Source of the DNA: Escherichia phage RobRod40
Direction: 5' to 3' (one strand)
Sequence record: OR896835.1
DNA length: 47,574 nucleotides
The notes under the pieces were generated by a model, which ran no database searches, had not been told where the DNA came from, and saw nothing but the letters and a program-made list of their open reading frames with translations. The position numbers were made by a program, and so were the translations under genes. Numbering within the stretch: position 1 is the stretch's first letter; every line of letters begins with the position of its first letter. Below, piece by piece: positions 30,455-44,334 of this stretch.

Positions 30455-30466
30455 TTAATCACCTCA

Positions 30467-30510
30467 ATAGCATTTTTTGTTAAAAGTCATTCTGATTTGA
30501 TGTTAGTATT
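30467..30510 (+). promoter_or_regulatory. promoter-like module variant (ATAGCAT-ttt-TTGTTAAA) in divergent region
   Basis: Between minus-strand regulator and + strand helicase; -10-like TAGTAT offset by 1 bp from canonical 22-bp spacing. Confidence 0.4.
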
Positions 30511-30555
30511 GTACTCAATTAAACGCTACAAGACAATTTTTATAGGAATTTAGAT

Positions 30556-32550
30556 ATGTTGCCTATCGAGAAGCTGGTTGCCAACTTTGATAAAGAAAGA
30601 ATTAAACAGATTCAGAAAGATTACCAGTTTGGCGAGATAACCCCTTACGAGTTCCAGTGCGTTACATTTGATGCAATTGGAAAGGCTATTGGCAAGTATG
30701 AGGCACCATTTATCGCAGACCTTTCCGTATCGGCTGGTAAGACAATCATTCTCGCCATGATTGGAAAGCGCATGGAGCAATTAGGATTGCCTTATATGGT
30801 TCTTTCTCGCCAGTCAGAGATAATAAGCCAGAACTCAGAAGAACTTCGAAACTTCGGAATCCGCAACAGCGTCTATTGCGCTGGCCTTAACGTTAAATCA
30901 GTTTATTACCCAACCATAGTTGCCAGTGAGGGCACGGCAGCTAACGGCTTGTTTAAGGGGCTTGGTGACTATGTCCCTGCCGTTATCGCTATCGATGAAT
31001 GTCACATGCTTGATGCTATGGATATCGTGGAAGCCGAAGAGAATGAAGAAACATTTGAGCAAATGAGCACAAAAAAAGGAGAGGTGGTCTTTAAAGATGG
31101 CGTTAATACCGGACTTCTTGGCACGGGCCGCGCACAGTACACGCTGATAATTACCGAGATGAAACGCCGTTGTCGTGAGAAGTATGGTCGTGAGCTTCGT
31201 ATATTCGGCCTTACTGGTAGCCCTTATCGAAACAATGACCATATTGTCGTTAGCAATCCAAACATCCGTGGATTCTGGCGCAAAACAGTTATTCAGGTGC
31301 CAACAAATTACCTTGTTGATTTGGGGTTCGTGGTACCAACAGTTTACGGCGAGGTTGGTGATTTAGGTTATGACCTTAGTGAATTTGCGCCAGACGGTAG
31401 CGATGGTGTGAAAGACTTCAGTAAGAAAGAAATGGATGCGATGCAGGAAAAGATTCATCAAAACCAGTCCATGACGCAAAAGATTATGCAGTTCGCAGCA
31501 AAGTTTATGGAGTCTCGCAACGCTGCACTTGTGACATGCTCTGGAAAGCGCCACTGCGAGGAAGCGGCGGCAGCGCTTCCTGAGGGTGCAACCTGGGCTA
31601 TAGTAACTGACTCAACTGGTGAGAAAAAGCGTCGTGAGATTCTTTCTGACGCAGCTGAGGGTAAGTATAAATTCATATTTCAGATTGGCTGCCTAACAAC
31701 CGGAGTTAACGTCCCGCCGTGGGATACGTCAATAATTCTTCGCAAGGTTGGTAGCATCACGTTACTGATTCAGCTTTTGGGGCGAGGAATGCGAATCCTT
31801 AAGAAGAAGCATAAGGAAATGGGAATGGTTAAGGATGATCACGTGGTGCTGGACTTCGCTGGTACTCTTGATGACATGGCGGAATTGTACTTTGACCCAA
31901 TCATAGAGGAAGTGCAGGACCAGAAATTTAAGTCTTCACGCAAAGGCGGCGATGAGCCAAGAATATGTCCAGCCTGTAGTTACGAGAACTCTCCTTTTGC
32001 TCGTCGTTGCAATAACGTAATTGATGGGAAGCGTTGTGAGCATTTTTTTACATTTCGCTTATGTGAAGATATAGAGGACCCGCAGACAAAAGTTACTATT
32101 AAGAAAGGTTGTGGTGAGAAGAATGATATTGCCGCTAAAAACTGCCGGTGCTGCGGAGAAATGCTTATTGACCCTAACGCAAAGTTGTCTGGAAAGATGT
32201 ATAGACAAGGGGATTGGTTGAGAGTTTACGGATTCAGTATTGGGTTAACTAAAAACCAAACCGGAATCGTTGCTCGCTATGAAATCATGGCTCACAGCGG
32301 AGACAGGTTTGTTGCTTACGAAACTTTCTTTCCAGAGAGTGACCATCGAGTTTGCTCTGTGAAGTGGAAGGCGTTTTGCCAAACTCATATCGCTAACAAA
32401 ACAGAAGCATTTCGCATCGGAAGACTTCGAAACGCTAAGATGATTATGACCAATGCAAGCCAATTCCGCGAGCCTATGCGAGTGACGCACAGAAAAAACC
32501 AGAAAGGTCAGGATATTATCGCAAATAAATCTTTTACTATGGAGGATTGA
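30556..32550 (+). CDS. putative SF2 DNA helicase (DExH-type)
   Basis: Walker A-like SVSAGKT and Walker B DECH; C-terminal Cys clusters suggesting zinc ribbons. Confidence 0.65.
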   Translation: MLPIEKLVANFDKERIKQIQKDYQFGEITPYEFQCVTFDAIGKAIGKYEAPFIADLSVSAGKTIILAMIGKRMEQLGLPYMVLSRQSEIISQNSEELRNFGIRNSVYCAGLNVKSVYYPTIVASEGTAANGLFKGLGDYVPAVIAIDECHMLDAMDIVEAEENEETFEQMSTKKGEVVFKDGVNTGLLGTGRAQYTLIITEMKRRCREKYGRELRIFGLTGSPYRNNDHIVVSNPNIRGFWRKTVIQVPTNYLVDLGFVVPTVYGEVGDLGYDLSEFAPDGSDGVKDFSKKEMDAMQEKIHQNQSMTQKIMQFAAKFMESRNAALVTCSGKRHCEEAAAALPEGATWAIVTDSTGEKKRREILSDAAEGKYKFIFQIGCLTTGVNVPPWDTSIILRKVGSITLLIQLLGRGMRILKKKHKEMGMVKDDHVVLDFAGTLDDMAELYFDPIIEEVQDQKFKSSRKGGDEPRICPACSYENSPFARRCNNVIDGKRCEHFFTFRLCEDIEDPQTKVTIKKGCGEKNDIAAKNCRCCGEMLIDPNAKLSGKMYRQGDWLRVYGFSIGLTKNQTGIVARYEIMAHSGDRFVAYETFFPESDHRVCSVKWKAFCQTHIANKTEAFRIGRLRNAKMIMTNASQFREPMRVTHRKNQKGQDIIANKSFTMED

Positions 32551-32551
32551 T

Positions 32552-32971
32552 ATGAAAATTACAGATAAGGTTGATTACATTGAGTTTTACCCAGGTCCTG
32601 TTAAGTCATGCCCTAAAGAGGATGACGAACAAATCTTTTGCTCTGATTGGGTTAAGTATAACTACCCAGAGATGGTATTTTTCCACTGCGTGAATGAGGG
32701 TAAGAAAACCATTGGACAAGCAAGAAAGGACCAGGCTAAAGGATTGCTTAAAGGGGTTTCGGACTGCTTATTCCTGATACCTGAATCTCTACGAGGCAAA
32801 TACCCTTTTGGAGCCATAGAGCTAAAGAGGGCCGGGAAGACCCAAGCTAGCCCAGTCAGTGGCGAGCAGAAGTCCTTCCTTAAAAGCGTGAGAGAGTCAG
32901 GTGGTTTTGCCGCAGTGGCCTACGGTCGTGAAGGTTTTCTGGCAGCATTCAAAGAAATGATTTCAAAATAG
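32552..32971 (+). CDS. VRR-NUC domain nuclease
   Basis: FHCVNEG, GVSDCLFL, GAIELKRAGK and Q..FL...G pattern matching the VRR-NUC PD-(D/E)XK layout. Confidence 0.7.
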   Translation: MKITDKVDYIEFYPGPVKSCPKEDDEQIFCSDWVKYNYPEMVFFHCVNEGKKTIGQARKDQAKGLLKGVSDCLFLIPESLRGKYPFGAIELKRAGKTQASPVSGEQKSFLKSVRESGGFAAVAYGREGFLAAFKEMISK

Positions 32972-33011
32972 CACGAATTGCTAAATACGAATCGGTGAGG
33001 TGGTGTATTAT
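32968..33011 (+). promoter_or_regulatory. conserved promoter-like module (ATAGCAC-gaa-TTGCTAAA, 22 bp, TATTAT)
   Basis: Palindrome GAGGTGgtgtattatCACCTC spans -10; leader CATCGAAACGAAAC. Confidence 0.6.
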
Positions 33012-33047
33012 CACCTCATCGAAACGAAACACAGAGAGAGAAACAAA

Positions 33048-33251
33048 ATGGCTACTATCTACACCACTAAGAAATACATTTCACGTAAAACTGGTTACGA
33101 GTATAACCTTGTTCTTGATGACTCGCTCGGCATGCTTCTCGCTGACGCTGAAGATGCTGAATACTGCTTTGAAGTTAGCCCGACTTACAAAGATGATTTA
33201 GAAACTGTTAAAAACGAATTTGGCGAAAAATTTGATGAGGTATCAGAATAA
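33048..33251 (+). CDS. hypothetical protein
   Basis: ATG 33048 after RBS AGAGAGAG and promoter-like module; track ORF 33000 start lacks RBS. Confidence 0.5.
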   Translation: MATIYTTKKYISRKTGYEYNLVLDDSLGMLLADAEDAEYCFEVSPTYKDDLETVKNEFGEKFDEVSE

Positions 33252-33472
33252 TGGCAGTTTTTACATTTGAGCACCAATGGGAAGTATTTAAGTTAATGGC
33301 AGTTGAGGAGTTAAATAAAGCTGGGTATAACAAAAACCCGTGGGACTTAGCATTTTGCCTGGACATGAGTTTTGAGCAGGATTACCTGAACACAGATATC
33401 GAAACATGGCGCGACCGTATGGTTGCTGATATCGAAGAAATGAAGAAAGATTGCCCTGAGGATTTCTTATGA
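33251..33472 (+). CDS. hypothetical protein
   Basis: 73-aa ORF, TAATG stop/start overlap. Confidence 0.5.
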   Translation: MAVFTFEHQWEVFKLMAVEELNKAGYNKNPWDLAFCLDMSFEQDYLNTDIETWRDRMVADIEEMKKDCPEDFL

Positions 33473-33666
33473 TCAACGAAAGGCCTTTTGTTGTTACATT
33501 TAAGCCAAGAAACAAACCCAGAATGGATATTGACGAATACTTACTAAAAAACGGAAATAGCTATTTTGTTCTTGAGATTTCGGCCGACTCGGATAGGTAC
33601 ATTGTTCGCAACGATGCTGGCATGGTTGTTAGCGTTTCAAAATTGGATGTGGAGATTGTGAGATGA
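33469..33666 (+). CDS. hypothetical protein
   Basis: 65-aa ORF, ATGA overlap with upstream gene. Confidence 0.5.
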   Translation: MINERPFVVTFKPRNKPRMDIDEYLLKNGNSYFVLEISADSDRYIVRNDAGMVVSVSKLDVEIVR

Positions 33667-33863
33667 TTACAGCAACCTGTGTAAAAACAAATGGCTCATT
33701 CACGCTGTTCAATGAGTACGAATTCAAACTTGATCCGATTAATGACCAGGTTGAAATAGTTAGCGATGACGGATTTGCATGGAAGTTACATAATGAATTT
33801 GATGGGTACTACGGGTGTAATGATGCGAAAGGCAAACATGTTAGCTTTCTGGTTTATGAATAG
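33663..33863 (+). CDS. hypothetical protein
   Basis: 66-aa ORF, ATGA overlap; stop followed by promoter-like module. Confidence 0.5.
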   Translation: MITATCVKTNGSFTLFNEYEFKLDPINDQVEIVSDDGFAWKLHNEFDGYYGCNDAKGKHVSFLVYE

Positions 33864-33907
33864 ATAGCACTTTTTGTTAAAACTAAAATCCACGGATGGA
33901 TTATATT
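33864..33907 (+). promoter_or_regulatory. conserved promoter-like module (ATAGCAC-ttt-TTGTTAAA, 22 bp, TATATT)
   Basis: Spacer palindrome ATCCAcggATGGAT; leader CATCAACAACG. Confidence 0.6.
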
Positions 33908-33937
33908 AAACACATCAACAACGCAGAGGGTTAAAAA

Positions 33938-34135
33938 ATGAAGGCAATTGTCGTTTACAACGCGAAAGGTCGCAATTACTTTACTGTTGGGAATATTTAC
34001 GATGTTTCACCAGCTTACCCTAAAGATGAAGAACAGTTATTATTTGATGTTACTGACGATGAAGGCGATCGTGTCTCAATAATAATTAGCGAATCTGCTG
34101 ATTGCGCTCATGGTTTCGTTTGGGAGCTTTTATAA
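33938..34135 (+). CDS. hypothetical protein
   Basis: 65-aa ORF, RBS AGAGGG. Confidence 0.5.
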   Translation: MKAIVVYNAKGRNYFTVGNIYDVSPAYPKDEEQLLFDVTDDEGDRVSIIISESADCAHGFVWELL

Positions 34136-34260
34136 TGAAAATTGTAGACAAAGAGATTTTTGAAATTGCACAGGCTTACGCAAAACAGGCTGTTAGGGAT
34201 AGTGACAATTATTGCTGGATGTGCGCTAAAGAATACCTGAAAATGGCTTACGGCTTATGA
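34135..34260 (+). CDS. small hypothetical protein (41 aa, CWMC motif)
   Basis: Below track cutoff; TAATG overlap upstream and ATGA overlap downstream suggest translational coupling. Confidence 0.35.
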   Translation: MKIVDKEIFEIAQAYAKQAVRDSDNYCWMCAKEYLKMAYGL

Positions 34261-34505
34261 TAGTTGAAACCGGACGCGCCGCAGTATGGGCGCATTGTGG
34301 AGAGGCGGGATTGCAGGAAGATATTAAGCAGATTTCTCGCTTCTTTGATATAAAAGATATCAGCGTTGTGTTCAATGGTAAGTTCTCTTACATGGGTGAG
34401 AGACCAAGAAAATACGTAAGAGTTAAGCCTGGTGTCAGTATTGATGTTAACGAGTTCCTTAAATCTGAGGGATTCAAGTTTAAGATAACGAAGCCTAAGG
34501 ATTGA
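34257..34505 (+). CDS. hypothetical protein
   Basis: 82-aa ORF in tightly packed early operon. Confidence 0.5.
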   Translation: MIVETGRAAVWAHCGEAGLQEDIKQISRFFDIKDISVVFNGKFSYMGERPRKYVRVKPGVSIDVNEFLKSEGFKFKITKPKD

Positions 34506-34507
34506 GC

Positions 34508-34759
34508 ATGTTGGGTTTAGATTTTCAGCAAGAGCATTACGATTTAGTACATGGACAAAGTGGAGCTAAGTTTAGAGCGATACCTATTGCTGACTGGCTC
34601 CCTCCTGACTATGTGGATGTGAACGCAAAAACTAAAGACGGGAAGTGGGTGCAGATTTACTATTCCCCAGCGTGTGGAAACCTTTGCATGACTGACCTTG
34701 AGAGAAAATTAGCAATTAGTGCGGAAGTGATCGACTACTGGTTGAAAGAAGTTGAATGA
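34508..34759 (+). CDS. hypothetical protein
   Basis: ATG 34508 after AAGGA (track start 34502 is TTG). Confidence 0.5.
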   Translation: MLGLDFQQEHYDLVHGQSGAKFRAIPIADWLPPDYVDVNAKTKDGKWVQIYYSPACGNLCMTDLERKLAISAEVIDYWLKEVE

Positions 34760-34842
34760 CGAGCCTAATACTAGTAGCATCGTTACCACTGTTCAGCTTT
34801 ACTATCTTATATTTTATCGCAATGAATTAAGGAACTTATATA

Positions 34843-35973
34843 ATGGCAACTGCAAAAATCACCAACGAACAATTGCGCGAAGAGCTTGCAAATGGGATGA
34901 CCAACAAAGCAATCGCAGAGAAGTATGGAATGAACATTCGCAACGTTGAATTACGTCGTAGTAAATTGGCTAAGAGTGGAGAATTGCACGGAAACCCTGG
35001 CATCAAGAAGTTAGTTCCAGATGGGTATATGGTTAAGGGAACTTCAACAATGATTGATGCGGATGGTAACGAAAAGATTCGCTGGGTCAAAACTTCTATA
35101 GATAATGAGCGCCTTGAGATTTTGATGGATCAGGCTCGTGAGGCATTCTGTTCTGATTTACCAAAAGCAGATGCGGTAATCCACTCAGGCAATGAGATTA
35201 ACTCTGAATTAATGACTCTTTACCCGATTTTCGATATCCATATTGGTATGATGGCTCATCGTCATGAATCTGGTGAGAATTATGACACGAACGCGGCAGA
35301 GAAATTAATGGGATCATATTTTGACCATGCAATTTCTGTATCACCTGCGTCAGAGAAAGCCGTGGTTTTAGTTGGTGGTGACTTCCTTCACTCTGACGGA
35401 TTGGAGGCTGTAACCCCAGCGAGCGGGCACTGCCTTGATCAGGATAGTCGGTATGCTAAGTTAGTTTATGTTGCGATTCGCTCAATTCGTGGTGCAGTAG
35501 AGAAGATGCTTAAGAAGCATAAGAATGTAGAGATTCAGATTATAGAGGGAAATCATGACCAAAGTGGTATGATTTGGCTTCGCGCGGCAATGGCTGCATT
35601 TTATGAAAATGAGAGTCGGGTGTTTGTTGATACCAGTCCGGCAATCATGCACAAAACACGATTTGGCTCAACACTACTTGGTTACACGCACGGTCACACG
35701 ATGAAGAAGGCTGAGGGTCGACTCGCAGCAATGGCGACAGACTACCGCAAAGACTTTGGTGAATGTGAGTTTGTTTACTGCCATTCCGGGCATTTTCACC
35801 ACGCAACTGTCACGGAGTGCACGCTTGGCATTGATGAAGTTCACCCAGCGCTGGCTAGTAAGGATGCGTATGCGGCCCGTGGAGGTTGGCGCTCATATCG
35901 TCAAGCGGCTGCAATAATCTATCACAAGGAGTTTGGCGAGGTTGGTCGCCACATTTATCGCCCAGGTATGTAA
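34843..35973 (+). CDS. HTH domain + metallophosphoesterase fusion protein
   Basis: N-terminal HTH-like MTNKAIAEKYGMNIRNVELRRSKL; calcineurin-like motifs GDFLHSD, GNHD, GHTHGH. Confidence 0.6.
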   Translation: MATAKITNEQLREELANGMTNKAIAEKYGMNIRNVELRRSKLAKSGELHGNPGIKKLVPDGYMVKGTSTMIDADGNEKIRWVKTSIDNERLEILMDQAREAFCSDLPKADAVIHSGNEINSELMTLYPIFDIHIGMMAHRHESGENYDTNAAEKLMGSYFDHAISVSPASEKAVVLVGGDFLHSDGLEAVTPASGHCLDQDSRYAKLVYVAIRSIRGAVEKMLKKHKNVEIQIIEGNHDQSGMIWLRAAMAAFYENESRVFVDTSPAIMHKTRFGSTLLGYTHGHTMKKAEGRLAAMATDYRKDFGECEFVYCHSGHFHHATVTECTLGIDEVHPALASKDAYAARGGWRSYRQAAAIIYHKEFGEVGRHIYRPGM

Positions 35974-36017
35974 ATAGCACTTTTTGCCTAACCCATGCCG
36001 TAGAAATGCGGCATAAT
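35974..36017 (+). promoter_or_regulatory. conserved promoter-like module (ATAGCAC-ttt-TTGCCTAA, 22 bp, CATAAT)
   Basis: Spacer palindrome TGCCGtagaaatGCGGCA; leader CATCGAAACGAG. Confidence 0.6.
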
Positions 36018-36058
36018 CACCACATCGAAACGAGATAAACTAAACGAGGAAACACAAA

Positions 36059-36235
36059 ATGACTAAAATGATTTATTGCACCAAGAACAATTCAAAGACG
36101 CTGCCATTTACAGTTAACCAGCCGTACAACGCAGAGTACCAGGGCGACGGATATTACAAAATTTATGGCGACGATATGACGCACATCTTAGCGCCGATTG
36201 ATGGTTCGTTAGTTGAATTTATTATCGCCGAGTAG
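36059..36235 (+). CDS. small hypothetical protein (58 aa)
   Basis: Below track cutoff; preceded by promoter-like module and RBS AACGAGGA; followed by strong terminator. Confidence 0.4.
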   Translation: MTKMIYCTKNNSKTLPFTVNQPYNAEYQGDGYYKIYGDDMTHILAPIDGSLVEFIIAE

Positions 36236-36261
36236 AGTAACAAAAACATAGCTTTACAACC

Positions 36262-36288
36262 GGGGGGCCTTTTGGCTCCCCTTTTTTA
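36262..36288 (+). terminator. rho-independent terminator upstream of lysis cassette
   Basis: 8-bp stem GGGGGGCC/GGCTCCCC with tttt loop then TTTTTT. Confidence 0.75.
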
Positions 36289-36365
36289 TGCTTCTTTTCC
36301 AAGCAGGGCTAATGTATCATTCTTTTACTAACTTAAACATTGACAAATAGATAAAGGTGGGTCAC

Positions 36366-36581
36366 ATGAGGGAAGTAATCAACGCCGCTACGGCGTCAAC
36401 TGGCGGCGCTGCGGTAACTGGCGCGGCAACTGGTCAAATGACTATAGCAATAATCAGCCTTATCGCTCTAATCATTTTTGGAGCTTGGGGTGCTTACTGG
36501 AAGTATAAGGATAGCCAGGCAATTCGACGAGCGCTTGAATCAGGGGATTTAAAGACGGCAATCAAGATAAGGAGCAAGTAA
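36366..36581 (+). CDS. putative holin (pinholin-like)
   Basis: 71 aa with hydrophobic TMD MTIAIISLIALIIFGAWGAYW and charged C-terminus; immediately upstream of endolysin; RBS AGGTGG. Confidence 0.55.
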   Translation: MREVINAATASTGGAAVTGAATGQMTIAIISLIALIIFGAWGAYWKYKDSQAIRRALESGDLKTAIKIRSK

Positions 36582-37067
36582 ATGAAGCAGAAGCTAGTGG
36601 TTGGTGCTGCGACCGCTGCGGCAATATACATCGCAGCGCCGCTTATTGAGCTTGTTGAAGGCGTAGAGAATAAGCCATACATGGATATTGCTGGAATCCC
36701 TACAGTTTGCGCCGGCGTTACTGGCCCTGACGTGGTTTGGGGCAAGAATTACAGCAATAGAGAGTGCCGAAAACTTCTAGAGAAGCACATTCAGATTCAT
36801 GGCAAGTATGTTGAGGATGCAGTTACCTACCCAATAGAACCAGAGACAAGGGCGGCGTTAATCAGCTTTAGCTACAATGTTGGCGGCTCAGCGATGAGGA
36901 AATCTACTGCTGTTAAGTTAATTAACCAGGGTAAGATTGAGCAAGGCTGTAAGGCTTTGGGTCTCTGGAATAAAGCTACCATTAACGGCAAGAAGGTTGT
37001 GGTTAAGGGGTTGGTGAATCGCAGGAATGAGGAGATTAAGTTATGCTTAAGTGGATTGCAGCGTTAG
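36582..37067 (+). CDS. SAR-endolysin (GH24 lysozyme with N-terminal signal-anchor-release domain)
   Basis: Weakly hydrophobic Gly/Ala-rich N-terminal helix VVGAATAAAIYIAAPLI followed by catalytic E-x8-D-x5-T triad (EGVENKPYMDIAGIPT). Confidence 0.8.
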   Translation: MKQKLVVGAATAAAIYIAAPLIELVEGVENKPYMDIAGIPTVCAGVTGPDVVWGKNYSNRECRKLLEKHIQIHGKYVEDAVTYPIEPETRAALISFSYNVGGSAMRKSTAVKLINQGKIEQGCKALGLWNKATINGKKVVVKGLVNRRNEEIKLCLSGLQR

Positions 37068-37432
37068 TAATGTGCGTAGCTTTATCTGGATGCTCAGCAA
37101 CATCTGCTCTGACCGGATTAATTGGCAGTAAGCCAGAGATTAGCGCTCAAGCTGGTGCAGAAAACAATAAGGTTGGTGTTGGGTTAACGAACAAGGTTGA
37201 CTCAAGTAACTCAAGTGAAACCGCGGTTAAAGATTCTAATGTTGGGTCACTGGATAGCTCGAGCGGGAAAAAGACTGCTGAAAACTCGATTAAGGCCTCA
37301 ACAATCACTGCCGAAAAGATTGAGATTACCAACAACGACTCATCCGCACTTCCGTGGATTGGAACAGGAGCTATGGGGTTACTTGTTTTTATCCTCCTGA
37401 CTGCAATATTAAGACGTAAAAAAGCCTCCTGA
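37043..37432 (+). CDS. unimolecular spanin (lipoprotein with C-terminal TMD)
   Basis: Lipobox ALSGC at N-terminus and C-terminal TMD GAMGLLVFILLTAIL followed by RRKK; overlaps endolysin end. Confidence 0.7.
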   Translation: MLKWIAALVMCVALSGCSATSALTGLIGSKPEISAQAGAENNKVGVGLTNKVDSSNSSETAVKDSNVGSLDSSSGKKTAENSIKASTITAEKIEITNNDSSALPWIGTGAMGLLVFILLTAILRRKKAS

Positions 37433-37449
37433 TGGAGGCTATATTTTTA
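37417..37449. terminator. bidirectional terminator between spanin and convergent minus-strand operon
   Basis: AGCCTCC-tgat-GGAGGCT flanked by A-run and T-run. Confidence 0.7.
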
Positions 37450-37782
37450 GCTAAATAACTCGTCGTCAGCCATTGTTCCTACATTCATCATCTCTTTTAT
37501 GTACTTGCTCTCATACCCGCTAAATGCCTCGAAGTTGAAATAAAATGGCCTTTTCAAACTCCCCTTGCTAACAAACTCACCACACTTACCATCAATGTAC
37601 CCAGCAGTTAACATCTTTGCGCAGAACTCCTTTGAAGCAGCGCTGCAAAACTCCCTATGCGATAAACCCGATGCCTTGCTGAACCTCTCAGAGTCCTTAT
37701 GTTGGTATATGAACCGCGCCAAATGCTGGCGCGTAAAGTATGAATACGACTCACAGAAGCGGTATAAATCCAAAATGAACAC
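37447..37782 (-). CDS. hypothetical Cys-rich protein
   Basis: 111-aa ORF last in minus-strand operon; convergent bidirectional terminator. Confidence 0.45.
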   Translation of the reverse strand: MFILDLYRFCESYSYFTRQHLARFIYQHKDSERFSKASGLSHREFCSAASKEFCAKMLTAGYIDGKCGEFVSKGSLKRPFYFNFEAFSGYESKYIKEMMNVGTMADDELFS

Positions 37783-37785
37783 TTA

Positions 37786-39369
37786 TCACCCCAACAGTCG
37801 TGGATTAATGTAAACTTTATCACCAATCAGGCACGTATAGTTTTTCTCATCAAGCATTGGCAGTAAGTGATCTTTAATCTTTGTCATTACACCAGCCTGA
37901 GCCTCAAACGGCTTAACCTTTCGAGCCGCCTCATACAATGAACGAATACCAACTACACCTTTCCCGTTCTTGCCTTGCTTGATCAGTATATCAACCAGCT
38001 TGCTCATCTCAGCATGGTCGCCAGCGTGACCAGCAGCGTTAGCTGATGACAGATAAGTCTTACTCAGTTCCTGGAACATAATTACAGCCTCTTGCATGGT
38101 GTCGAGCTCGATCTCTCTGGACTTCTGTGGACTACCGCCATTTGGGCTGAACCAGTTGCGCACAGTGTGAAGAACAGCTGCAATCCTGATGGCCTGCTTA
38201 TCGAACTTACCCAACGCGCCACGTAACATTGTGTGTGAATACTTCCCGCCATCTGCAAGGTGAGGCTCCATCTCCTGACGCGCACGGTTTAGGTATTTCA
38301 TCGCTGAGTTGCTCACTGTCAGCTTAACATCTTGCTCATTCATTATTTCATGAACTAAAAGGAAGTAATCTGCCTTCAGCCCGCTATTAATTGGTTCGTA
38401 TGTTGAGTTGCCATTCTCATCAACGAATACGCGCTCACCAAGGAATGATTTTTCACGAACCAAAAGGAAGCGTTCAGATACACCGATACCGCGCGCACCA
38501 GCATTCATGATGGCGTTGATTGTTTCATCCTGCGCAATTACAGAGATGCAACCCATAGCAACGAAACTCATGTTATTTTCTGCGTTGGCACGCGCAATGG
38601 ATACGCTACCAGCGTCCCACGCTTTCAGTACAAGTTCGCTGTTCGTTTTCTTCGAGCCATCACCGTAAGTCATGCCAAGAAGTGAGTTGACGCTCGTTGC
38701 CTCATCCGAAATTACCGCAAAGTTGCCCTGGCGGTTGTTTATTCGCGCAAGACCTTCAGGCGTGGTATCTGATACTGGAAATACGATATCACACAGCTTC
38801 TCGAGTTTCTCCTCTAACTCCTCTTTCTCCTCAAAAAGAGAAGCCATCTCAGAGGGTGACTTTTCCTGCTTCATCTCTTTGGACAATGCAGATAGTTTGG
38901 CCATGATCTTTTTGCGCTCACGCTTTCGCACCTCATTCAGTCGCTCATTCTCAGAAATCATCGGAGCAAGGGCTAGTGAGTTGATGGCCGATTTACCCGT
39001 AGATGGTGGCTGACTGGTTACGACATATAGCGACGTTGGCTGCTGTGTGCCGTGATACTCGACAGTAAAGCGCCCAAGCATGGCAGCGGAAATACACCCC
39101 AGGAAGTGCATATAAGCTGAAGATTCGGGAAATTGAACAGAGCGAGCAATGTTAGCTGACAGTTTGCCAACAACATCAACATCATTACCGAGTGAGATTA
39201 CGGGATACTTGTCATTAGCAGCATCAATCTCTACTGGCGCTTTCCAGAATGATTGAGACTGTCGATAGCCATTGGCATTAATAGCCACTCGCAGAGGTGG
39301 AAGGTTGTCTGCGGCAGCAATTGCCATAACCTGCTCAACAGATAGTTTATCTTCGTTGAAATCAAACAT
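37786..39369 (-). CDS. P-loop containing protein (long paralog of 42539..43063)
   Basis: 527 aa; Walker A-like QPPSTGKS; N-terminal ~40 aa and C-terminal ~65 aa align with the 174-aa + strand protein; extended -10 promoter and GGAGAG RBS. Confidence 0.6.
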   Translation of the reverse strand: MFDFNEDKLSVEQVMAIAAADNLPPLRVAINANGYRQSQSFWKAPVEIDAANDKYPVISLGNDVDVVGKLSANIARSVQFPESSAYMHFLGCISAAMLGRFTVEYHGTQQPTSLYVVTSQPPSTGKSAINSLALAPMISENERLNEVRKRERKKIMAKLSALSKEMKQEKSPSEMASLFEEKEELEEKLEKLCDIVFPVSDTTPEGLARINNRQGNFAVISDEATSVNSLLGMTYGDGSKKTNSELVLKAWDAGSVSIARANAENNMSFVAMGCISVIAQDETINAIMNAGARGIGVSERFLLVREKSFLGERVFVDENGNSTYEPINSGLKADYFLLVHEIMNEQDVKLTVSNSAMKYLNRARQEMEPHLADGGKYSHTMLRGALGKFDKQAIRIAAVLHTVRNWFSPNGGSPQKSREIELDTMQEAVIMFQELSKTYLSSANAAGHAGDHAEMSKLVDILIKQGKNGKGVVGIRSLYEAARKVKPFEAQAGVMTKIKDHLLPMLDEKNYTCLIGDKVYINPRLLG

Positions 39370-39399
39370 TATTTCTCTCCGTGTTGTTTCTGAGCGGAC

Positions 39400-39443
39400 A
39401 TTATATCAACGACCGCTTTTAATTCATTATCAATTTGTGCTAT
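39400..39443 (-). promoter_or_regulatory. conserved promoter-like module on minus strand (ATAGCAC-aaa-TTGATAAT, 22 bp, TGaTATAAT)
   Basis: Extended -10 TGnTATAAT; precedes 527-aa P-loop gene. Confidence 0.6.
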
Positions 39444-39794
39444 TTAAATGTATTGCACCTCGAAATGGTAAGTCTGGCAAAGAGTGTAAAATCCAACATC
39501 CTCGCTACGGTAAAGCTGCCAAGCGTTGCCATCTTCATCGTAAATGTAACCCGCAGATTGACCAAGACCAGCATGAAGATTAACTTGATATCGCTTTCCT
39601 TCTTTGAAGTCTTTTTTAACTCCTGACTTGTGGTTAACCTTCGTACAGTAAATCGTCTTCGTCTTGATGTACCTACCGCGTTCTTCCAGGTTAACCCATT
39701 TACCATCTTTCTTGATTTGCTCTACACCGTCTTTAACACGAGCTTTGTATAATACGTTTTCGTTGCTAATGAAGTTTTTAGTTGTTGCTGTCAT
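39444..39794 (-). CDS. hypothetical protein
   Basis: 116-aa ORF with its own promoter-like module. Confidence 0.5.
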   Translation of the reverse strand: MTATTKNFISNENVLYKARVKDGVEQIKKDGKWVNLEERGRYIKTKTIYCTKVNHKSGVKKDFKEGKRYQVNLHAGLGQSAGYIYDEDGNAWQLYRSEDVGFYTLCQTYHFEVQYI

Positions 39795-39830
39795 TTTGAT
39801 TTCCTTTGCGTGCTTCGTTTCGATGAGATG

Positions 39831-39874
39831 AATATACAGGAAAAGCCCCGAAGGGCTTTAGCAATTAGTGCTAT
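39831..39874 (-). promoter_or_regulatory. conserved promoter-like module on minus strand (ATAGCAC-taa-TTGCTAAA, 22 bp, TATATT)
   Basis: Terminator hairpin sits inside the 22-bp spacer; leader CATCTCATCGAAACGAAG. Confidence 0.6.
39840..39858 (-). terminator. terminator-like hairpin embedded in a promoter-module spacer (minus strand)
   Basis: Minus-strand AGCCC-ttcg-GGGCT then TTTT, lying between the TTGCTAAA motif and the -10-like hexamer. Confidence 0.5.
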
Positions 39875-39875
39875 T

Positions 39876-40550
39876 TTAGCTGTTGGCGAGGTATACAGCA
39901 CGGGCGAACCCGCGCGGGGTTAGAGAGCGCAACTGCTTAGTCTTAGCAGACTTCCCGCCGAGGTACTTCCATCCCCAAAAGAAACCGATGTTAATCGGCC
40001 CGTGATTCTTCACTGGCTCAACGAATCCGTTGCCATGCCAGATGCAAGTTTTCTTGGTGTAGCCGTCGTATTTTGGCATTTTTTCGTGGTATGGCAGATC
40101 ATGAGCATTCATTAGCCCGCCGTACTCATACGGGTTGAAATAGAAATCAGGCTTACGCCACATGCTTGACAGCTTGCCTACCGGGTTTTCAACCATCCAT
40201 GGAGCCTGGAAGTAATTACCAACCTCTTCGACGAGCTTAGCATTATCCAGTGCATACGCCAGTTCATCTTCCCCGCGCTCATGCTGTGATCCTGACTGAG
40301 AGAACAGTGTGCAATCAGGAAATCCGATAACCATTTGCGCCGGAGGCAGGCCAAGTAATTCACACTTAGTGATGAAATCTTTGTCTATCCACATGTTGAT
40401 GTAGTGAATATTCTCATGCTGCATCTTGATTTGATATTCGCCATGATTACCAGAATCCGCGTTGAAACAGTAGACGGTGTGACCATTCTCAGCCCATGGC
40501 AGGCCAGCGATACCTGAACCATCAAACAGACAGTAAATTACCTTTTTCAT
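39876..40550 (-). CDS. putative compact DNA (cytosine-5) methyltransferase-like protein
   Basis: Motif I-like LFDGSGIAG, motif IV-like GFPDCTLFSQSG, motif VI-like ENPVG, C-terminal RSLTPRGFARA; unusually short at 224 aa. Confidence 0.4.
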   Translation of the reverse strand: MKKVIYCLFDGSGIAGLPWAENGHTVYCFNADSGNHGEYQIKMQHENIHYINMWIDKDFITKCELLGLPPAQMVIGFPDCTLFSQSGSQHERGEDELAYALDNAKLVEEVGNYFQAPWMVENPVGKLSSMWRKPDFYFNPYEYGGLMNAHDLPYHEKMPKYDGYTKKTCIWHGNGFVEPVKNHGPINIGFFWGWKYLGGKSAKTKQLRSLTPRGFARAVYLANS

Positions 40551-40699
40551 TTCTTCTTTGCCTTCTCAATTGCTTTTTGGATGATATTGAAGCTCTCAAT
40601 CAAATCTTCTTTAAAGTAGTCACCAACAGGCCAACCTTTGCAGCTGTATTTGGCTATGGTTTCTAGATCGTAATAGTTCAAGTCAGATGGTTTAAGCAT
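40547..40699 (-). CDS. small hypothetical protein (50 aa)
   Basis: Below track cutoff; TAATG and ATGA overlaps with neighbours. Confidence 0.35.
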   Translation of the reverse strand: MLKPSDLNYYDLETIAKYSCKGWPVGDYFKEDLIESFNIIQKAIEKAKKK

Positions 40700-40938
40700 T
40701 ACTTCACCTCGTCAAAAGTTGCGATGCCAGGGATAAACATACCAACCTTCCAACCAGCGATAGCAACCCACCCAGAATCGTGCTTGTGCGGTCGCTCGGC
40801 GCCATTAATCAACCACTCGTTCGGGATTACCTTCCCGTTAATAATTAGCGACTCAGCGTCGTATAAGGAGCCTTTTACGAATGGAGTAAGAGCCTTCTTG
40901 TCGGTGCTGGTGATGCAATTAGTGCAGCGAATTTTCAT
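40699..40938 (-). CDS. hypothetical protein
   Basis: 79-aa ORF in minus-strand operon. Confidence 0.5.
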   Translation of the reverse strand: MKIRCTNCITSTDKKALTPFVKGSLYDAESLIINGKVIPNEWLINGAERPHKHDSGWVAIAGWKVGMFIPGIATFDEVK

Positions 40939-40948
40939 ATCTCAATTC

Positions 40949-41128
40949 TCAAATAAATGGTAAACATTCGACGCAGCCAAGACCATCGCAGCACAGGAAT
41001 TCATCCTCTGACTGGAATTGCTTAGCCAAATCAATATCCAACCTTCCGCGCACTACAAGTTCGGTGTAATCTTCGTTAAGCCCAATCAGTGCGCATTCGT
41101 GACGTAACTCATCTTTGCTGTTCATCAT
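40949..41128 (-). CDS. small Cys-rich hypothetical protein (59 aa)
   Basis: C-terminal CCDGLGCVEC cluster; ATGA overlap with upstream small ORF. Confidence 0.35.
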   Translation of the reverse strand: MMNSKDELRHECALIGLNEDYTELVVRGRLDIDLAKQFQSEDEFLCCDGLGCVECLPFI

Positions 41129-41304
41129 TTTTGCAACTCCGCTTCGTAGTATTCGTATGAATTGAACTTATCGATTTCGTTCATCTTCTCGCAAACCTGC
41201 TCTGCCATCTGCTCACTTAGGCATACGCAGTGGACGGCTGTGTCGTAATCCGGATCACGCGGTTCAGAAATCACGACGTAGCAATACATTTTTACAGTGC
41301 TCAT
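41125..41304 (-). CDS. small hypothetical protein (59 aa)
   Basis: First ORF of minus-strand operon; RBS GGAGAAAA; ~40 bp downstream of promoter-like module. Confidence 0.35.
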   Translation of the reverse strand: MSTVKMYCYVVISEPRDPDYDTAVHCVCLSEQMAEQVCEKMNEIDKFNSYEYYEAELQK

Positions 41305-41345
41305 TTATTTTCTCCAGTTCTCTTCACTCATTTCGATGAGCTAAC

Positions 41346-41389
41346 TATATCCTCCCCGACTGATAATGTCTTTAACAAAAAGTGCTATT
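41346..41389 (-). promoter_or_regulatory. promoter-like module on minus strand (ATAGCAC-ttt-TTGTTAAA, ~22-23 bp, TATAGT-like)
   Basis: Leader TAGCTCATCGAAATGAG; adjacent to inverted-repeat operator array; precedes minus-strand operon. Confidence 0.5.
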
Positions 41390-41407
41390 CGTTGGATTTA
41401 CGTATTG

Positions 41408-41470
41408 TTGCAGATATTGCAATGATTCACATGATTATTGCACATAAAGCAATATTGCTTCAGATGCAAT
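41408..41470. promoter_or_regulatory. inverted-repeat operator-like array
   Basis: TTGCA-N5-TGCAA (41408-41422) and two abutting ATTGC-N7-GCAAT sites (41437-41453, 41454-41470) just upstream of minus-strand promoter module. Confidence 0.4.
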
Positions 41471-41630
41471 GATGTTTTTGATTGTTGCGAAAATTGAAAT
41501 GAAGTGGTGAGTGAGTGAATGAAAGATGGATGGACTACCATACAAGTTGATTTTTATTCTGGCTGAGCCATTTTCATGCTTACGCGTAAACGAAATAACT
41601 AGCTGTATGCCATTTGCGTCCGCGGGAAAT

Positions 41631-41660
41631 CGTATACGCATGATACGCAGCGATACGCAC
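41631..41660. repeat. iteron-like direct repeats (3 x ATACGC at ~10-bp period)
   Basis: cgtATACGCa / tgATACGCag / cgATACGCac. Confidence 0.5.
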
Positions 41661-41728
41661 TAGTTACATTAAAACATCCTTATATAACAACCATTTATCT
41701 ATATTATTATTATTATTATATATATATG
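41661..41728. repeat. AT-rich module CTAGTTACATTAAAAC...(TAT)6(AT)n, copy 2
   Basis: Homologous to 23345-23405; (TAT)6 at 41702-41719. Confidence 0.6.
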
Positions 41729-41947
41729 TATGCTATGTAAGCCATGTCATATGGTGAAGTTGATATATTTCTATGATTTATTCCTACACATGTAGGAATG
41801 AGACTACTTTGTAGGAATGAAAAGGCATATATAGGCATGAATCTCCAAAAAGTTGGCATACATGGCACACGCAGCCATTTACACCAGTCATGTCGAGCAC
41901 TATTCCCAAATAAACGTAGGCAATCGCCATTGATACACAAATTAACG

Positions 41948-41976
41948 TTGACTTACAGGTTAACCATCAATATAAT
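41948..41976 (+). promoter_or_regulatory. near-consensus sigma70-type promoter (TTGACT-17-TATAAT)
   Basis: Canonical hexamers and spacing upstream of 42015 operon; followed by ATCATCGAAACAACAAACGA leader. Confidence 0.6.
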
Positions 41977-42014
41977 GACAATCATCGAAACAACAAACGA
42001 AAAGAGGATATACA

Positions 42015-42539
42015 ATGAGCGTTAAAACATTGGGTGCAGTTATTCGATATATGATTGACCAGGCGATTGAGTCTGAAGATAAGTCATTCACAGTACGGCT
42101 TCGTGATATCGCAAGAGCGACAACGGGAATAAACCCAAAATCATTAAGTGATGATGAGATAGTTGAGTTCGAAAAGGTCAAGGGCCTTAAAAGTTCATAC
42201 ATTTATAATACAGCCTCCAGGGTTCAGCGATTGCAGGAACTAAACCTCAGGGCAAAATATGAGATGGTATTCGTCAATGAAGATGGCGAAATACAAAGTG
42301 GCTCTTCTGTTGTCGACGGGCTTGGTTACAGAGCAATGCGAATCTTCCTTGTTGAGGGTGCTGTGAAGCCAGTTTGCCGAGCAAGGGCCGACTCAGAGAA
42401 CGAGGCTATGGCGGTTGAAAGATTCAAGTCCAGGCTTCTTAAGCTTTCACCAAGCGTTGCCGGCCTGGAAGGTGATGAACTTAAGGGCGCTGTGGCAATG
42501 ATTAACGCCTATCAGGAAATGATTAAGGAGACCAAATAA
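42015..42539 (+). CDS. hypothetical protein (first gene of + operon beside iteron region)
   Basis: 174-aa ORF immediately downstream of near-consensus sigma70 promoter and AT-rich iteron module. Confidence 0.55.
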   Translation: MSVKTLGAVIRYMIDQAIESEDKSFTVRLRDIARATTGINPKSLSDDEIVEFEKVKGLKSSYIYNTASRVQRLQELNLRAKYEMVFVNEDGEIQSGSSVVDGLGYRAMRIFLVEGAVKPVCRARADSENEAMAVERFKSRLLKLSPSVAGLEGDELKGAVAMINAYQEMIKETK

Positions 42540-43063
42540 TGTTTGATTTTACCGAAGAGAGGCTGACAGATGAGCAGATTATGGGTATTGCGAAGCAGGA
42601 TGGGATTCCCCCGATACGGGTTGCAATCAATGCTAACGGGTATCGGCATGTTCAGCACCTCTGGGGTCAGCCTGATTCATCTGAAGTATACATAGATGAA
42701 GATCTTGGCGTTCTGATTAAGTTGCTCAGGAAAATGGCAAGGAACGGAAAGGGAGTATTGGGGGTGAGGTCTTTATACGAAACCGCGCGCAAGGTTAAGC
42801 CATTTGAGGGTCGCAATGGAATCATGGCGTGCATTAAGGATGAACTAATCCCCGCTCTAGAGGAAATGAATCTCGCTTGCCTCATTGGAGATAAGATTTA
42901 TGTCCACCCGGCTATCATTGATGAGTATTGGCAGCCTAACTTCAAAACTTACGAAGCTGAGCACGTTAGTAGACTACCATACCACTTACGGTACAGTGAG
43001 GAGGAGGTGGAGAGAACGATGGAGTTCTACCGGAAAGCTAAATCACTTCTGAACGGTGAATAG
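42539..43063 (+). CDS. short paralog of the 527-aa P-loop protein (lacks central domain)
   Basis: MFDFTEERLTDEQIMGIAKQDGIPPIRVAINANGYR and NGKGVLGVRSLYETARKVKPFEG segments match N- and C-terminal segments of 37786..39369. Confidence 0.6.
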   Translation: MFDFTEERLTDEQIMGIAKQDGIPPIRVAINANGYRHVQHLWGQPDSSEVYIDEDLGVLIKLLRKMARNGKGVLGVRSLYETARKVKPFEGRNGIMACIKDELIPALEEMNLACLIGDKIYVHPAIIDEYWQPNFKTYEAEHVSRLPYHLRYSEEEVERTMEFYRKAKSLLNGE

Positions 43064-43103
43064 CACGAATTGCCAAACCTTCCGCAAGGCCATTTGATAT
43101 AGT
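43060..43103 (+). promoter_or_regulatory. conserved promoter-like module (ATAGCAC-gaa-TTGCCAAA, 22 bp, TATAGT)
   Basis: Stop TAG embedded; spacer palindrome CCTTccgcAAGG. Confidence 0.55.
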
Positions 43104-43142
43104 ATCTCTTGTCGAGTGAACGCAAACAAATGAGGATTTAAC

Positions 43143-44327: not shown

Positions 44328-44334
44328 ATGGTAA

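What the first reader, a model, noticed from the sequence alone, without database searches (positions are those of the whole stretch)
36366..37432. Compact lysis cassette: pinholin-like holin, SAR-endolysin, unimolecular spanin
The three overlapping genes have a single-TMD small holin, a GH24 lysozyme with catalytic E-x8-D-x5-T and a signal-anchor-release-type N-terminal helix, and a single-gene spanin with both a lipobox (ALSGC) and a C-terminal TMD. The single-gene spanin is the T1 gp11-type architecture. A strong terminator at 36262-36288 directly upstream implies regulated read-through or a dedicated late promoter; TTGACA at 36339-36344 lacks a clear -10.
Basis: partly seen in the sequence, partly recalled or inferred. 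Interest (0 to 1): 0.4.

Follow-up and report, generated by a model that had tools for sequence, protein, structure and literature searches.

The report
Known T1/Rtp-type phage lysis cassette
This is the ordinary three-gene host-lysis module (holin, membrane-tethered lysozyme, single-protein spanin) of an Rtp/T1-like coliphage; it is already annotated in hundreds of phage genomes and described in the literature.

Summary
Window 36366-37432 carries three same-strand genes. The holin is 71 aa and 100% identical to phage Rtp gp63. The GH24 lysozyme is 161 aa, with catalytic E26-x8-D35-x5-T41 and a weakly hydrophobic, Cys-free N-terminal anchor. The unimolecular spanin is 129 aa, with lipobox LSGC17 and a C-terminal TMD. 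They are homologous, in the same order, to T1 gp13, gp12 and gp11 (59%, 46% and 42% identity). The region is 94.5% identical in DNA to phage Rtp.

The literature already describes this T1-family cassette as pinholin + SAR endolysin + u-spanin. The Rtp spanin is listed in SpaninDB as a 129-aa u-spanin.

Corrections:
- Holin and endolysin abut and do not overlap. Only endolysin and spanin overlap, by 25 nt.
- TTGACA lies at 36340-36345.
- "Single TMD" is disputed. The Gly/Ala/Thr-rich N-terminus is about as hydrophobic as TMD1 of EssD, the DLP12 homologue of the S21 pinholin.
- "Pinholin" rests on context only; there is no sequence similarity to S21.

The upstream terminator is real. A terminator sits at that position in all 14 Drexlerviridae cassettes examined, with unrelated stems. 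A second, bidirectional terminator follows the spanin. How the cassette is transcribed remains unknown.

Verdict: already known, low interest.

The parts
36262..36287 (+). Intrinsic terminator ending the upstream (DNA-metabolism/SH3) transcription unit: stem 36262-36281, T6 tail 36282-36287
   Evidence: dG -18.1, z -3.3; listed first among the terminator-like sites in 28000-47574. It is 96% conserved among 7 Rtp-likes, against 69% for the spacer just upstream. A hairpin plus T-tract lies at the same position in all 14 Drexlerviridae cassettes, with at least 6 unrelated stems.
36289..36365 (+). Conserved non-coding leader or candidate promoter region. It holds a -10-like TATCAT (36315-36320), TTGACA (36340-36345) and the SD AGGTGGG (36355-36361).
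   Evidence: 93% conserved among 7 Rtp-likes, against 69-81% at codon position 3. No consensus sigma-70 promoter on the + strand. A 5/6 -10-like hexamer lies 30-34 nt after the terminator stem in 5 of 6 lineages. BPROM promoter annotated at the equivalent site in SU57. Function is inferred, not shown.
36366..36581 (+). Holin, T1 gp13 family, 71 aa. Gly/Ala/Thr-rich uncharged N-terminus at residues 4-22 (nt 36375-36431), strong TMD at residues 25-45 (nt 36438-36500), basic cytoplasmic C-tail.
   Evidence: PHROG 2877 holin 1.2e-37. 59% identical to T1 gp13 and 100% identical to Rtp gp63. Hydropathy; family alignment. Present in 739 phage records.
36582..37067 (+). GH24 (T4-lysozyme-type) endolysin with an N-terminal signal-anchor-release-type segment at residues 5-22 (nt 36594-36647). 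Catalytic residues E26 (36657-36659), D35 (36684-36686), T41 (36702-36704).
   Evidence: PF00959 1.2e-34. Best solved relatives are RrrD 4zpu (2e-26) and 3hde (8e-26), with the alignment starting inside the anchor. 46% identical to T1 gp12. Anchor dG +4.1 kcal/mol, KD 1.82, no Cys. Triad invariant.
37043..37432 (+). Unimolecular spanin, T1 gp11 family, 129 aa. Lipoprotein signal at residues 1-16, lipobox LSGC with Cys17 (37091-37093), Ser18 at +2, periplasmic domain without Cys, C-terminal TMD at residues 105-123 (nt 37355-37411), RRKK tail. Overlaps the endolysin by 25 nt.
   Evidence: PHROG 1804 9.7e-50. 42% identical to T1 gp11 over 125 aa. Features; G16-C17-S18 invariant. Rtp orthologue listed as a 129-aa USP with 0 periplasmic Cys in SpaninDB.
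37423..37440 (.). Bidirectional terminator overlapping the spanin stop codon, shared with the convergent minus-strand gene 37447-37782
   Evidence: dG -14.1 on + and -13.4 on -, z -4.2 and -5.1. Equivalent terminators are annotated or found in SU57, EC3a, T1, Sin4, Sushi and ZerotoHero.
36059..36235 (+). Neighbouring gene, not inside the terminator-bracketed cassette: 58-aa DUF7244 protein (T1 gp14 homologue), a standalone SH3-like protein recently proposed as an auxiliary lysis factor
   Evidence: PF23896 5.4e-29, PHROG 4788, PMC13164509. No hydrophobic segment is visible in the sequence, and the terminator separates it from the holin.

Best explanation
This is the lysis cassette of an Rtp-like (Drexlerviridae, Braunvirinae) coliphage, orthologous to phage T1 genes 13-12-11. 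The steps below are inferred by homology, not shown for this sequence.

1. Transcription. The cassette is a separate unit bracketed by two intrinsic terminators. It is transcribed either from a weak promoter in the 78-nt conserved gap (-10-like TATCAT at 36315-36320, poor -35) or by read-through of the upstream terminator.

2. Holin. It accumulates in the inner membrane through TMD 25-45, with its basic C-tail in the cytoplasm.

3. Endolysin. It is exported by Sec but stays tethered and inactive through its weakly hydrophobic, uncleaved N-terminal anchor (residues 5-22). The catalytic Glu26 lies only 4 residues from the membrane.

4. Spanin. It is exported and lipidated on Cys17. Ser at +2 sends it to the outer membrane, while its C-terminal TMD stays in the inner membrane, so it spans the periplasm through the murein mesh.

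5. Lysis. When the holin triggers and the membrane depolarises, the anchor leaves the bilayer. The lysozyme then refolds, as R21 does, and degrades the murein. This frees the spanin to fuse or disrupt the inner and outer membranes.

Whether the holin makes small 'pinholes' is the least secure step.
For: DNA is 94.5% identical to phage Rtp across 36200-37500, and 88 phage records match. The proteins are homologous to T1 gp13/12/11 in the same order. Family models hit strongly. The endolysin is closest to RrrD (4zpu) and 3hde/3hdf, with the alignment extending into the anchor. The catalytic triad and four Cys are invariant, and there is no Cys in the anchor. The anchor is Gly/Ala-rich with dG +4.1 kcal/mol, preceded by K2 and K4. 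The only A-x-A-like site at its end is followed by Pro20 (read directly from the sequence). The spanin's lipobox, Ser+2, Cys-free periplasmic domain and C-terminal TMD are all conserved. T1 gp11 complements a lambda Rz/Rz1 defect, and members of its family sit in pinholin/SAR-endolysin cassettes (PMC6139136). The Rtp spanin is in SpaninDB. Terminators bracket the cassette in 14 of 14 relatives.
Against: Nothing here is experimental for this phage. No SignalP or TMHMM could be run, and a single-sequence AlphaFold model of the endolysin was unusable (pLDDT 38.5). The holin has no similarity to the S21-type pinholin. Its TMD number is annotated inconsistently: 'single TMD' in the T1 RefSeq record and in Sin4, against 'class II, two TMDs' in PMC4559738 and PMC11447400. 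No + strand consensus promoter was found between terminator and holin.
Confidence: 0.88

Rival explanations
1. The holin is a canonical large-hole holin rather than a pinholin. It would still activate the SAR endolysin by depolarising the membrane, but could also release cytoplasmic proteins.
For: No sequence similarity to the S21-type pinholin EssD (E=1.1). From my own knowledge, SAR endolysins are also found with non-pinholin holins, for example P1 Lyz with LydA (paper listed). u-spanins work with either holin type (PMC6139136). A cytoplasmic SH3-like protein proposed to bind murein (PMC13164509) could reach the periplasm only through large holes.
Against: The Young-lab literature consistently classes T1-family holins as pinholins. 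The protein is only 71 aa. Its conserved F38-G39-x-x-G42-A43 segment resembles small-residue helix-packing motifs, although I did not test that comparison. The uncharged Gly/Ala/Thr-rich N-terminus has about the same hydrophobicity as the weakly hydrophobic TMD1 of the S21-like pinholin EssD (dG +6.7 against +6.5).
Confidence: 0.3
2. The endolysin N-terminus is an ordinary cleavable Sec signal peptide, or the enzyme is cytoplasmic. Lysis timing would then not depend on signal-anchor release.
For: Small residues (A12-A13-A14, A18-A19) occur inside the hydrophobic stretch, and no signal-peptide predictor could be run here.
Against: Cleavage after A19 is disfavoured by Pro20 at +1. Cleavage at A12-A14 would leave a signal of only 12-14 residues. 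Catalytic Glu26 follows the hydrophobic stretch by 4 residues. The stretch aligns with the N-terminal anchor of 3hde/RrrD, which, from my own knowledge of the R21 work (Sun et al. 2009), refolds into the active enzyme. An uncharged 17-20-residue N-terminus after 1-2 basic residues is conserved in all 9 family members aligned. A cytoplasmic enzyme is unlikely given KD 1.82 over residues 5-23 after K2 and K4.
Confidence: 0.06
3. Regulation alternative: the cassette has no promoter of its own and is expressed only by read-through or antitermination of the terminator at 36262-36287, from the upstream DNA-metabolism operon.
For: No + strand promoter reaches the consensus threshold in the 78-nt gap. 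The best candidate has a 2/6 -35. All upstream genes from 30556 are on the same strand.
Against: The gap is 93% conserved, more than synonymous sites. A 5/6 -10-like hexamer recurs 30-34 nt after the stem in 5 of 6 divergent lineages, which suggests an activator-dependent or -10-driven promoter. The hairpin is strong (-18 kcal/mol with a T6 tail).
Confidence: 0.35

Closest known systems
Phage Rtp genes rtp63-rtp64-rtp65 (Rtpvirus, Braunvirinae; AM156909 / NC_007603)
   Same: Same three genes, order, spacing and flanking terminators. DNA 94.5% identical. Holin 71/71, endolysin 154/161 and spanin 120/129 residues identical.
   Different: A few conservative substitutions. The upstream DUF7244 gene is only 44/58 identical to Rtp's but 56/58 to SU57's, which looks mosaic. 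The original Rtp record starts rtp65 nine codons late, at Met10, dropping the first nine residues of the signal peptide.
Phage T1 lysis cassette gp13 (holin), gp12 (endolysin), gp11 (prototype unimolecular spanin)
   Same: Orthologous proteins in the same order (59%, 46% and 42% identity). A terminator lies upstream of the holin and another after the spanin. Lipobox LSGC is identical.
   Different: In T1 the genes overlap by 1 nt each. Here holin and endolysin abut, and endolysin and spanin overlap by 25 nt. The terminator stem and leader sequences are unrelated, and TTGACA is absent from the T1 leader.
Phage 21 / DLP12 pinholin-SAR endolysin system (S21 68/EssD, R21/RrrD)
   Same: The endolysin is homologous to RrrD (4zpu), and to 3hde/3hdf, which I take to be R21 (E about 1e-26). 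It has the same catalytic triad, four conserved Cys and a Cys-free N-terminal anchor. The holin is the same size (71 aa), with a comparably weak first hydrophobic segment.
   Different: The holin is not detectably related in sequence and has only about 2 residues between the two hydrophobic segments, where EssD has an 8-10 residue charged loop. No conserved dual-start antiholin. Phage 21 uses a two-component Rz/Rz1 spanin (rzpD/rzoD), not a u-spanin.

Membership tests
T1 gp11-type unimolecular spanin | N-terminal lipoprotein signal with lipobox and lipidated Cys; residue at +2 not Asp (outer-membrane sorting) | tested here: met
   MLKWIAALVMCVA-LSGC17-S18. G16, C17 and S18 are invariant in 10 homologues.
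T1 gp11-type unimolecular spanin | C-terminal transmembrane domain followed by basic residues | tested here: met
   Residues 105-123, dG -1.5 kcal/mol, KD 2.18, then RRKK.
T1 gp11-type unimolecular spanin | At least 40% identity over at least 40% of length to a family member (criterion of Kongari et al. 2018) | tested here: met
   42% identity over 125 of 129 aa to T1 gp11; PHROG 1804 1e-49; Rtp orthologue in SpaninDB.
T1 gp11-type unimolecular spanin | No periplasmic cysteine; last gene of the lysis cassette | tested here: met
   Cys only at 11 (signal peptide) and 17 (lipidated). The gene follows the endolysin and is followed by a terminator.
T1 gp11-type unimolecular spanin | Outer-membrane disruption, shown by complementation of lambda Rz/Rz1 | not testable with these tools
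   Shown only for T1 gp11 (PMC6139136).
SAR endolysin (R21 type, GH24) | T4-lysozyme-type catalytic domain with E-x8-D/C-x5-T | tested here: met
   PF00959 1.2e-34. E26, D35 and T41 are invariant and align with the matching Glu, Asp and Thr of 3hde/RrrD.
SAR endolysin (R21 type, GH24) | N-terminal weakly hydrophobic, Gly/Ala/Ser/Thr-rich TMD after basic residues | tested here: met
   K2, K4, then LVVGAATAAAIYIAAPLI. dG +4.1, KD 1.82, 47% G/A/S/T; RrrD gives dG +0.8.
SAR endolysin (R21 type, GH24) | The anchor is not cleaved by signal peptidase | tested here: inconclusive
   Only a manual -3/-1 rule check was possible: Pro20 at +1 of the A18-A19 site, and catalytic E26 is 4 residues downstream. 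No SignalP available.
SAR endolysin (R21 type, GH24) | pmf-dependent release from the membrane and activation | not testable with these tools
   Needs fractionation and energy-poison experiments.
SAR endolysin (P1 Lyz disulfide-caging type) | Cysteine inside the SAR domain for disulfide isomerisation | tested here: not met
   Cys only at 43, 62, 123 and 155, so regulation, if SAR, is of the R21 refolding type.
Pinholin (S21 68 type, class II) | Sequence homology to S21/EssD | tested here: not met
   BLASTP E=1.1 against EssD. No Pfam or NCBIfam holin family hit.
Pinholin (S21 68 type, class II) | Two TMDs, the first a weakly hydrophobic releasable (SAR-like) helix | tested here: inconclusive
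   Segment 4-22 has dG +6.7, KD 0.91 and 79% G/A/S/T; EssD TMD1 has +6.5, 0.59 and 63%. It is below standard TMD thresholds, and only T22-G23-Q24 separates it from TMD 25-45. Annotations disagree.
Pinholin (S21 68 type, class II) | Nanometre-scale holes; cannot release a cytoplasmic endolysin | not testable with these tools
   Needs lambda S complementation or a structural assay.
Pinholin (S21 68 type, class II) | Dual-start antiholin | tested here: inconclusive
   An in-frame GTG at 36357 (ATG in SU57 and EC3a) lies inside the SD of the main ATG and has no SD of its own. There is no in-frame upstream start in T1.
T1 gp13 holin family (PHROG 2877) | Sequence homology and position ahead of the endolysin | tested here: met
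   PHROG 1.2e-37 over the full length; 59% identity to T1 gp13; 739 phage records.

The most novel reading that the evidence does not exclude
The T1/Rtp-type holin may be a distinct kind of depolarising holin. In this reading it is a single-pass, N-out/C-in protein. Its invariant Gly-rich periplasmic tail (G13-G14 ... T22-G23) would act as a built-in, SAR-like timing element. The universally positioned terminator and the conserved leader (including ATTGACA 20-30 nt before the start codon) would form a dedicated late-expression switch that sets lysis timing in a phage family without its own RNA polymerase.
Probability: 0.15. Interest if true: 0.35.

Novelty: already known. Interest (0 to 1): 0.08.

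Why it matters
It matters little beyond correct annotation. The cassette is a textbook example of the 'pinholin - SAR endolysin - u-spanin' lysis route, and close orthologues are already annotated and catalogued. The useful by-products are modest. The lysis cassette is insulated by terminators in every Drexlerviridae lineage examined. The recently proposed 'SH3 lysis accessory' gene lies outside that insulated unit and has no export signal. The topology of this very common holin family is still annotated inconsistently and appears never to have been tested.

Tried and rejected
- Single-sequence AlphaFold2 model of the endolysin, to see whether the N-terminal helix packs onto the body: pLDDT 38.5, unusable. 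I ran no further search on building an alignment, because the answer would not change the verdict.
- Rfam scan of 35900-37600: only chance-level hits.
- PADLOC on the flanking small proteins and the holin: nothing.
- RNA structure in the leader that would sequester the start codon (CAUUGAC pairing with GUCACAUG): MFE z = -2.5. The G36361A change in relatives breaks the terminal pair without compensation, and the pairing is not conserved in other lineages. Rejected as unsupported.
- TTGACA as a -35: the -10 would overlap the start codon (TCACAT or CACATG, 2-3 of 6). Rejected for holin expression.
- Minus-strand promoter-like site TTGTCA-16-AAGAAT at 36346-36319: no more than chance frequency in the region. 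Not pursued.
- Dual-start antiholin from GTG 36357: judged to be part of the SD.
- Search for the leader motif elsewhere in the window: unique.
- Papers not held in the library: Kongari et al. 2018 J Virol (PMC6206483), Wietzorrek et al. 2006 (PMC1367250), Young 2014 (PMC4012431). A search for a Drexlerviridae transcriptome found nothing relevant.

Full report
**What is there**

Window 36366-37432 holds three + strand ORFs. The first runs 36366-36581 (71 aa), the second 36582-37067 (161 aa) and the third 37043-37432 (129 aa). Each has a Shine-Dalgarno sequence upstream. These are AGGTGGG 4 nt before the first ATG, GGAG 7 nt before the second and GAGGAG 8 nt before the third.

Holin and endolysin abut: the stop TAA at 36579-36581 is followed directly by ATG at 36582. 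Endolysin and spanin overlap by 25 nt.

Family models hit strongly. The holin matches PHROG 2877 "holin" at 1.2e-37. The endolysin matches Pfam Phage_lysozyme at 1.2e-34 and PHROG 7 "endolysin" at 2e-48. The spanin matches PHROG 1804 "Rz-like spanin" at 9.7e-50. Among seven close relatives, codon position 3 is the least conserved position in all three frames. These are real genes in these frames.

**Where it comes from**

The stretch 36200-37500 is 94.5% identical to Escherichia phage Rtp. It matches 88 phage records, nearly all Drexlerviridae/Braunvirinae coliphages. In those records the genes are annotated holin / endolysin (or SAR endolysin) / Rz-like, unimolecular or u-spanin.

The holin is 71/71 identical to Rtp gp63. 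The endolysin is 154/161 and the spanin 120/129 identical to their Rtp counterparts. The three proteins are homologous, in the same order, to phage T1 gp13, gp12 and gp11, at 59%, 46% and 42% identity. The holin family occurs in 739 phage records and the spanin family in 1170. The right half of the window is only about 85-88% identical over about two-thirds of its length to its best relatives. The phage may therefore be a distinct species, but the cassette itself is not new.

**Endolysin**

The motif E26-x8-D35-x5-T41 is present and invariant in nine family members. The closest solved structures are RrrD of prophage DLP12 (4zpu, 1.9e-26) and the 3hde/3hdf lysozyme (8e-26 and 9.6e-25). I identify 3hde/3hdf from memory as R21 of phage 21. 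The alignment begins at query residue 8, inside the N-terminal hydrophobic segment.

That segment follows K2 and K4 and reads LVVGAATAAAIYIAAPLI. Its summed Hessa dG is +4.1 kcal/mol and its Kyte-Doolittle mean is 1.82, with 47% Gly/Ala/Ser/Thr. It is weaker than the RrrD anchor, which scores +0.8. It contains no Cys. If the enzyme is a SAR endolysin, its regulation would be of the R21 refolding type, not the P1 Lyz disulfide-caging type.

The only A-x-A-like site at the end of the stretch is followed by Pro20. The catalytic Glu lies four residues beyond the stretch. Both points argue against a cleaved signal peptide. This is a manual check, because no signal-peptide predictor was available. 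PMC6139136 describes the R21 mechanism: Sec export, tethering that depends on the proton-motive force, then release and refolding.

**Spanin**

The N-terminus MLKWIAALVMCVALSGC17-S18 is a lipoprotein signal with lipobox LSGC, the same as in T1 gp11. Ser at +2 predicts outer-membrane sorting. Residues 105-123 form a strong TMD (dG -1.5) followed by RRKK. The mature periplasmic part has no Cys.

G16-C17-S18 and a KP(D/E)(I/V)(S/T)AQxGxENxK motif are conserved across Drexlerviridae. They are also conserved in Autographiviridae homologues from Drulisvirus and Phimunavirus.

PMC6139136 defines u-spanins by exactly these features. It reports that T1 gene 11 complements lambda Rz/Rz1, and it groups families at 40% identity over 40% of length or more. 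The Rtp protein is in its tables as a 129-aa u-spanin with an 86-residue periplasmic domain. That domain is scored at about 6% helix and 30% strand, with no periplasmic Cys.

**Holin**

One strong TMD at residues 25-45 is certain (dG -1.5, KD 2.28). The C-tail carries eight basic residues, so it is cytoplasmic by the positive-inside rule.

The N-terminal segment 4-22 (VINAATASTGGAAVTGAAT) is uncharged and 79% Gly/Ala/Ser/Thr. Its dG is +6.7 and its KD 0.91, below normal TMD thresholds. It is nonetheless essentially as hydrophobic as TMD1 of EssD, the S21-like pinholin, which scores dG +6.5 and KD 0.59. From my own knowledge, that TMD1 is an experimentally established releasable helix.

The segment also carries some of the family's few invariant residues. 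G13, G14, T22 and G23 are invariant, as is F38-G39-x-x-G42-A43 in the TMD.

Annotations disagree on TMD number. T1 RefSeq and Sin4 say one TMD. PMC4559738 and PMC11447400 say class II pinholin with two TMDs.

There is no detectable similarity to EssD/S21 (E = 1.1). "Pinholin" is therefore a functional analogy drawn from the SAR-endolysin partnership. It is not a family membership, and hole size is untested.

**Regulation**

The terminator is real. An 8-bp stem at 36262-36281 with 7 GC pairs is followed by T6. Its dG is -18.1 kcal/mol, and none of 200 shuffles folded as well. It heads the scan's list of terminator-like sites in 28000-47574.

I examined 14 Drexlerviridae cassettes, covering Braunvirinae, Tunavirinae, Tempevirinae and Webervirus. 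All have a hairpin plus T-tract 67-85 nt before the holin ATG, with at least six unrelated stem sequences. The upstream gene varies: DUF7244/SH3, exonuclease or dNMP kinase.

A second, bidirectional terminator overlaps the spanin stop at 37423-37440. Equivalent terminators were found or annotated in T1, ZerotoHero, Sin4, Sushi, SU57 and EC3a. The cassette is thus an insulated unit at the end of a rightward DNA-metabolism operon.

The gap 36289-36365 is 93% conserved among seven Rtp-likes, against 69-81% at synonymous positions. No + strand site reaches the sigma-70 consensus threshold. The best candidate is TTCTTT-17-TATCAT, with the -10 at 36315-36320. The same site is annotated by BPROM in SU57.

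A 5/6 -10-like hexamer recurs 30-34 nt after the stem in five of six lineages. It has no usable -10. ATTGAC(A/T) recurs at a similar place in four of six lineages and remains unexplained. I found no transcript mapping for this phage family in the held literature.

**Comparison and verdict**

The finding is correct, and it was already known. [quoted passage not shown] The same description is repeated in PMC6139136, PMC11447400 and PMC13164509. The Rtp orthologue of the spanin is catalogued.

The mechanism is inferred by homology throughout. Membership is met for the T1 gp11 u-spanin family and the T1 gp13 holin family. It is met on sequence features for the R21-type SAR endolysin. It is not met, or is inconclusive, for the S21-type pinholin family.

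Interest is low. The only open points are the holin's topology and hole size, and how the terminator-insulated cassette is switched on.

Noticed in passing
window 36059-36235 (+): 58-aa DUF7244 protein (PF23896 5e-29; T1 gp14 homologue). [quoted passage not shown] Here, and in all relatives that carry it, the strong terminator separates it from the holin. It has no signal peptide or TMD, so with a pinholin it would have no obvious route to the murein. This weakens that proposal. It is 56/58 identical to SU57's copy but only 44/58 to Rtp's, unlike the adjacent holin, which suggests mosaicism.
   Followed up: partly
window 36289-36365; loci L003, L009, L010, L015, L016: The non-coding gap between terminator and holin is more conserved (93%) than synonymous sites (69-81%). 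A 5/6 -10-like hexamer recurs 30-34 nt after the terminator stem in 5 of 6 Drexlerviridae lineages. ATTGAC(A/T) recurs 20-30 nt before the holin ATG in 4 of 6. The function is unknown; it could be a late promoter or a leader element.
   Followed up: partly
window 36357-36368: An in-frame GTG three codons upstream of the holin ATG (giving M-G-H-M...). SU57 and EC3a have an in-frame ATG at the same place (M-E-D-H-M...). It looks like a dual-start motif but lies inside the Shine-Dalgarno sequence, has no SD of its own and is absent from T1.
   Followed up: partly
L002 3371-3733 (AM156909 rtp65); L007 513-782 (KX130960 holin): Start-site errors in public records. The original Rtp record starts the spanin at Met10, nine codons late, which drops the first nine residues of the signal peptide. 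IME253 annotates an 89-aa N-terminally extended holin.
   Followed up: no
L008 (Klebsiella phage VLCpiA1k, Drulisvirus) 1601-2841; L011 (Pectobacterium phage Zenivior_B1) 1547-1936: Homologues of this u-spanin (40-54% identity, including the GCSATSALTGL(I/V)GSKP motif) occur in Autographiviridae podophages. In VLCpiA1k the gene order is different (spanin-holin-endolysin), and its holin differs in length and sequence (83 aa). This points to exchange of the spanin gene between siphophage and podophage lineages.
   Followed up: no
search hits: About 21 records named 'Campylobacter phage' (for example MG065688.1 A110b) and one named 'Pseudomonas phage PsgS01F' carry this coliphage cassette at about 87-88% DNA identity. 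These are probably misattributed hosts or contaminating T1-like phages.
   Followed up: no
window 37447-37782 (-): A convergent 111-aa ORF (PHROG 2794, unknown function; T1 gp10 homologue) shares the bidirectional terminator with the spanin. It has no TMD and no Pfam or PADLOC hit.
   Followed up: partly
window 46107-46184 (+): A single tRNA-Arg (anticodon TCT), as annotated in related phages.
   Followed up: no
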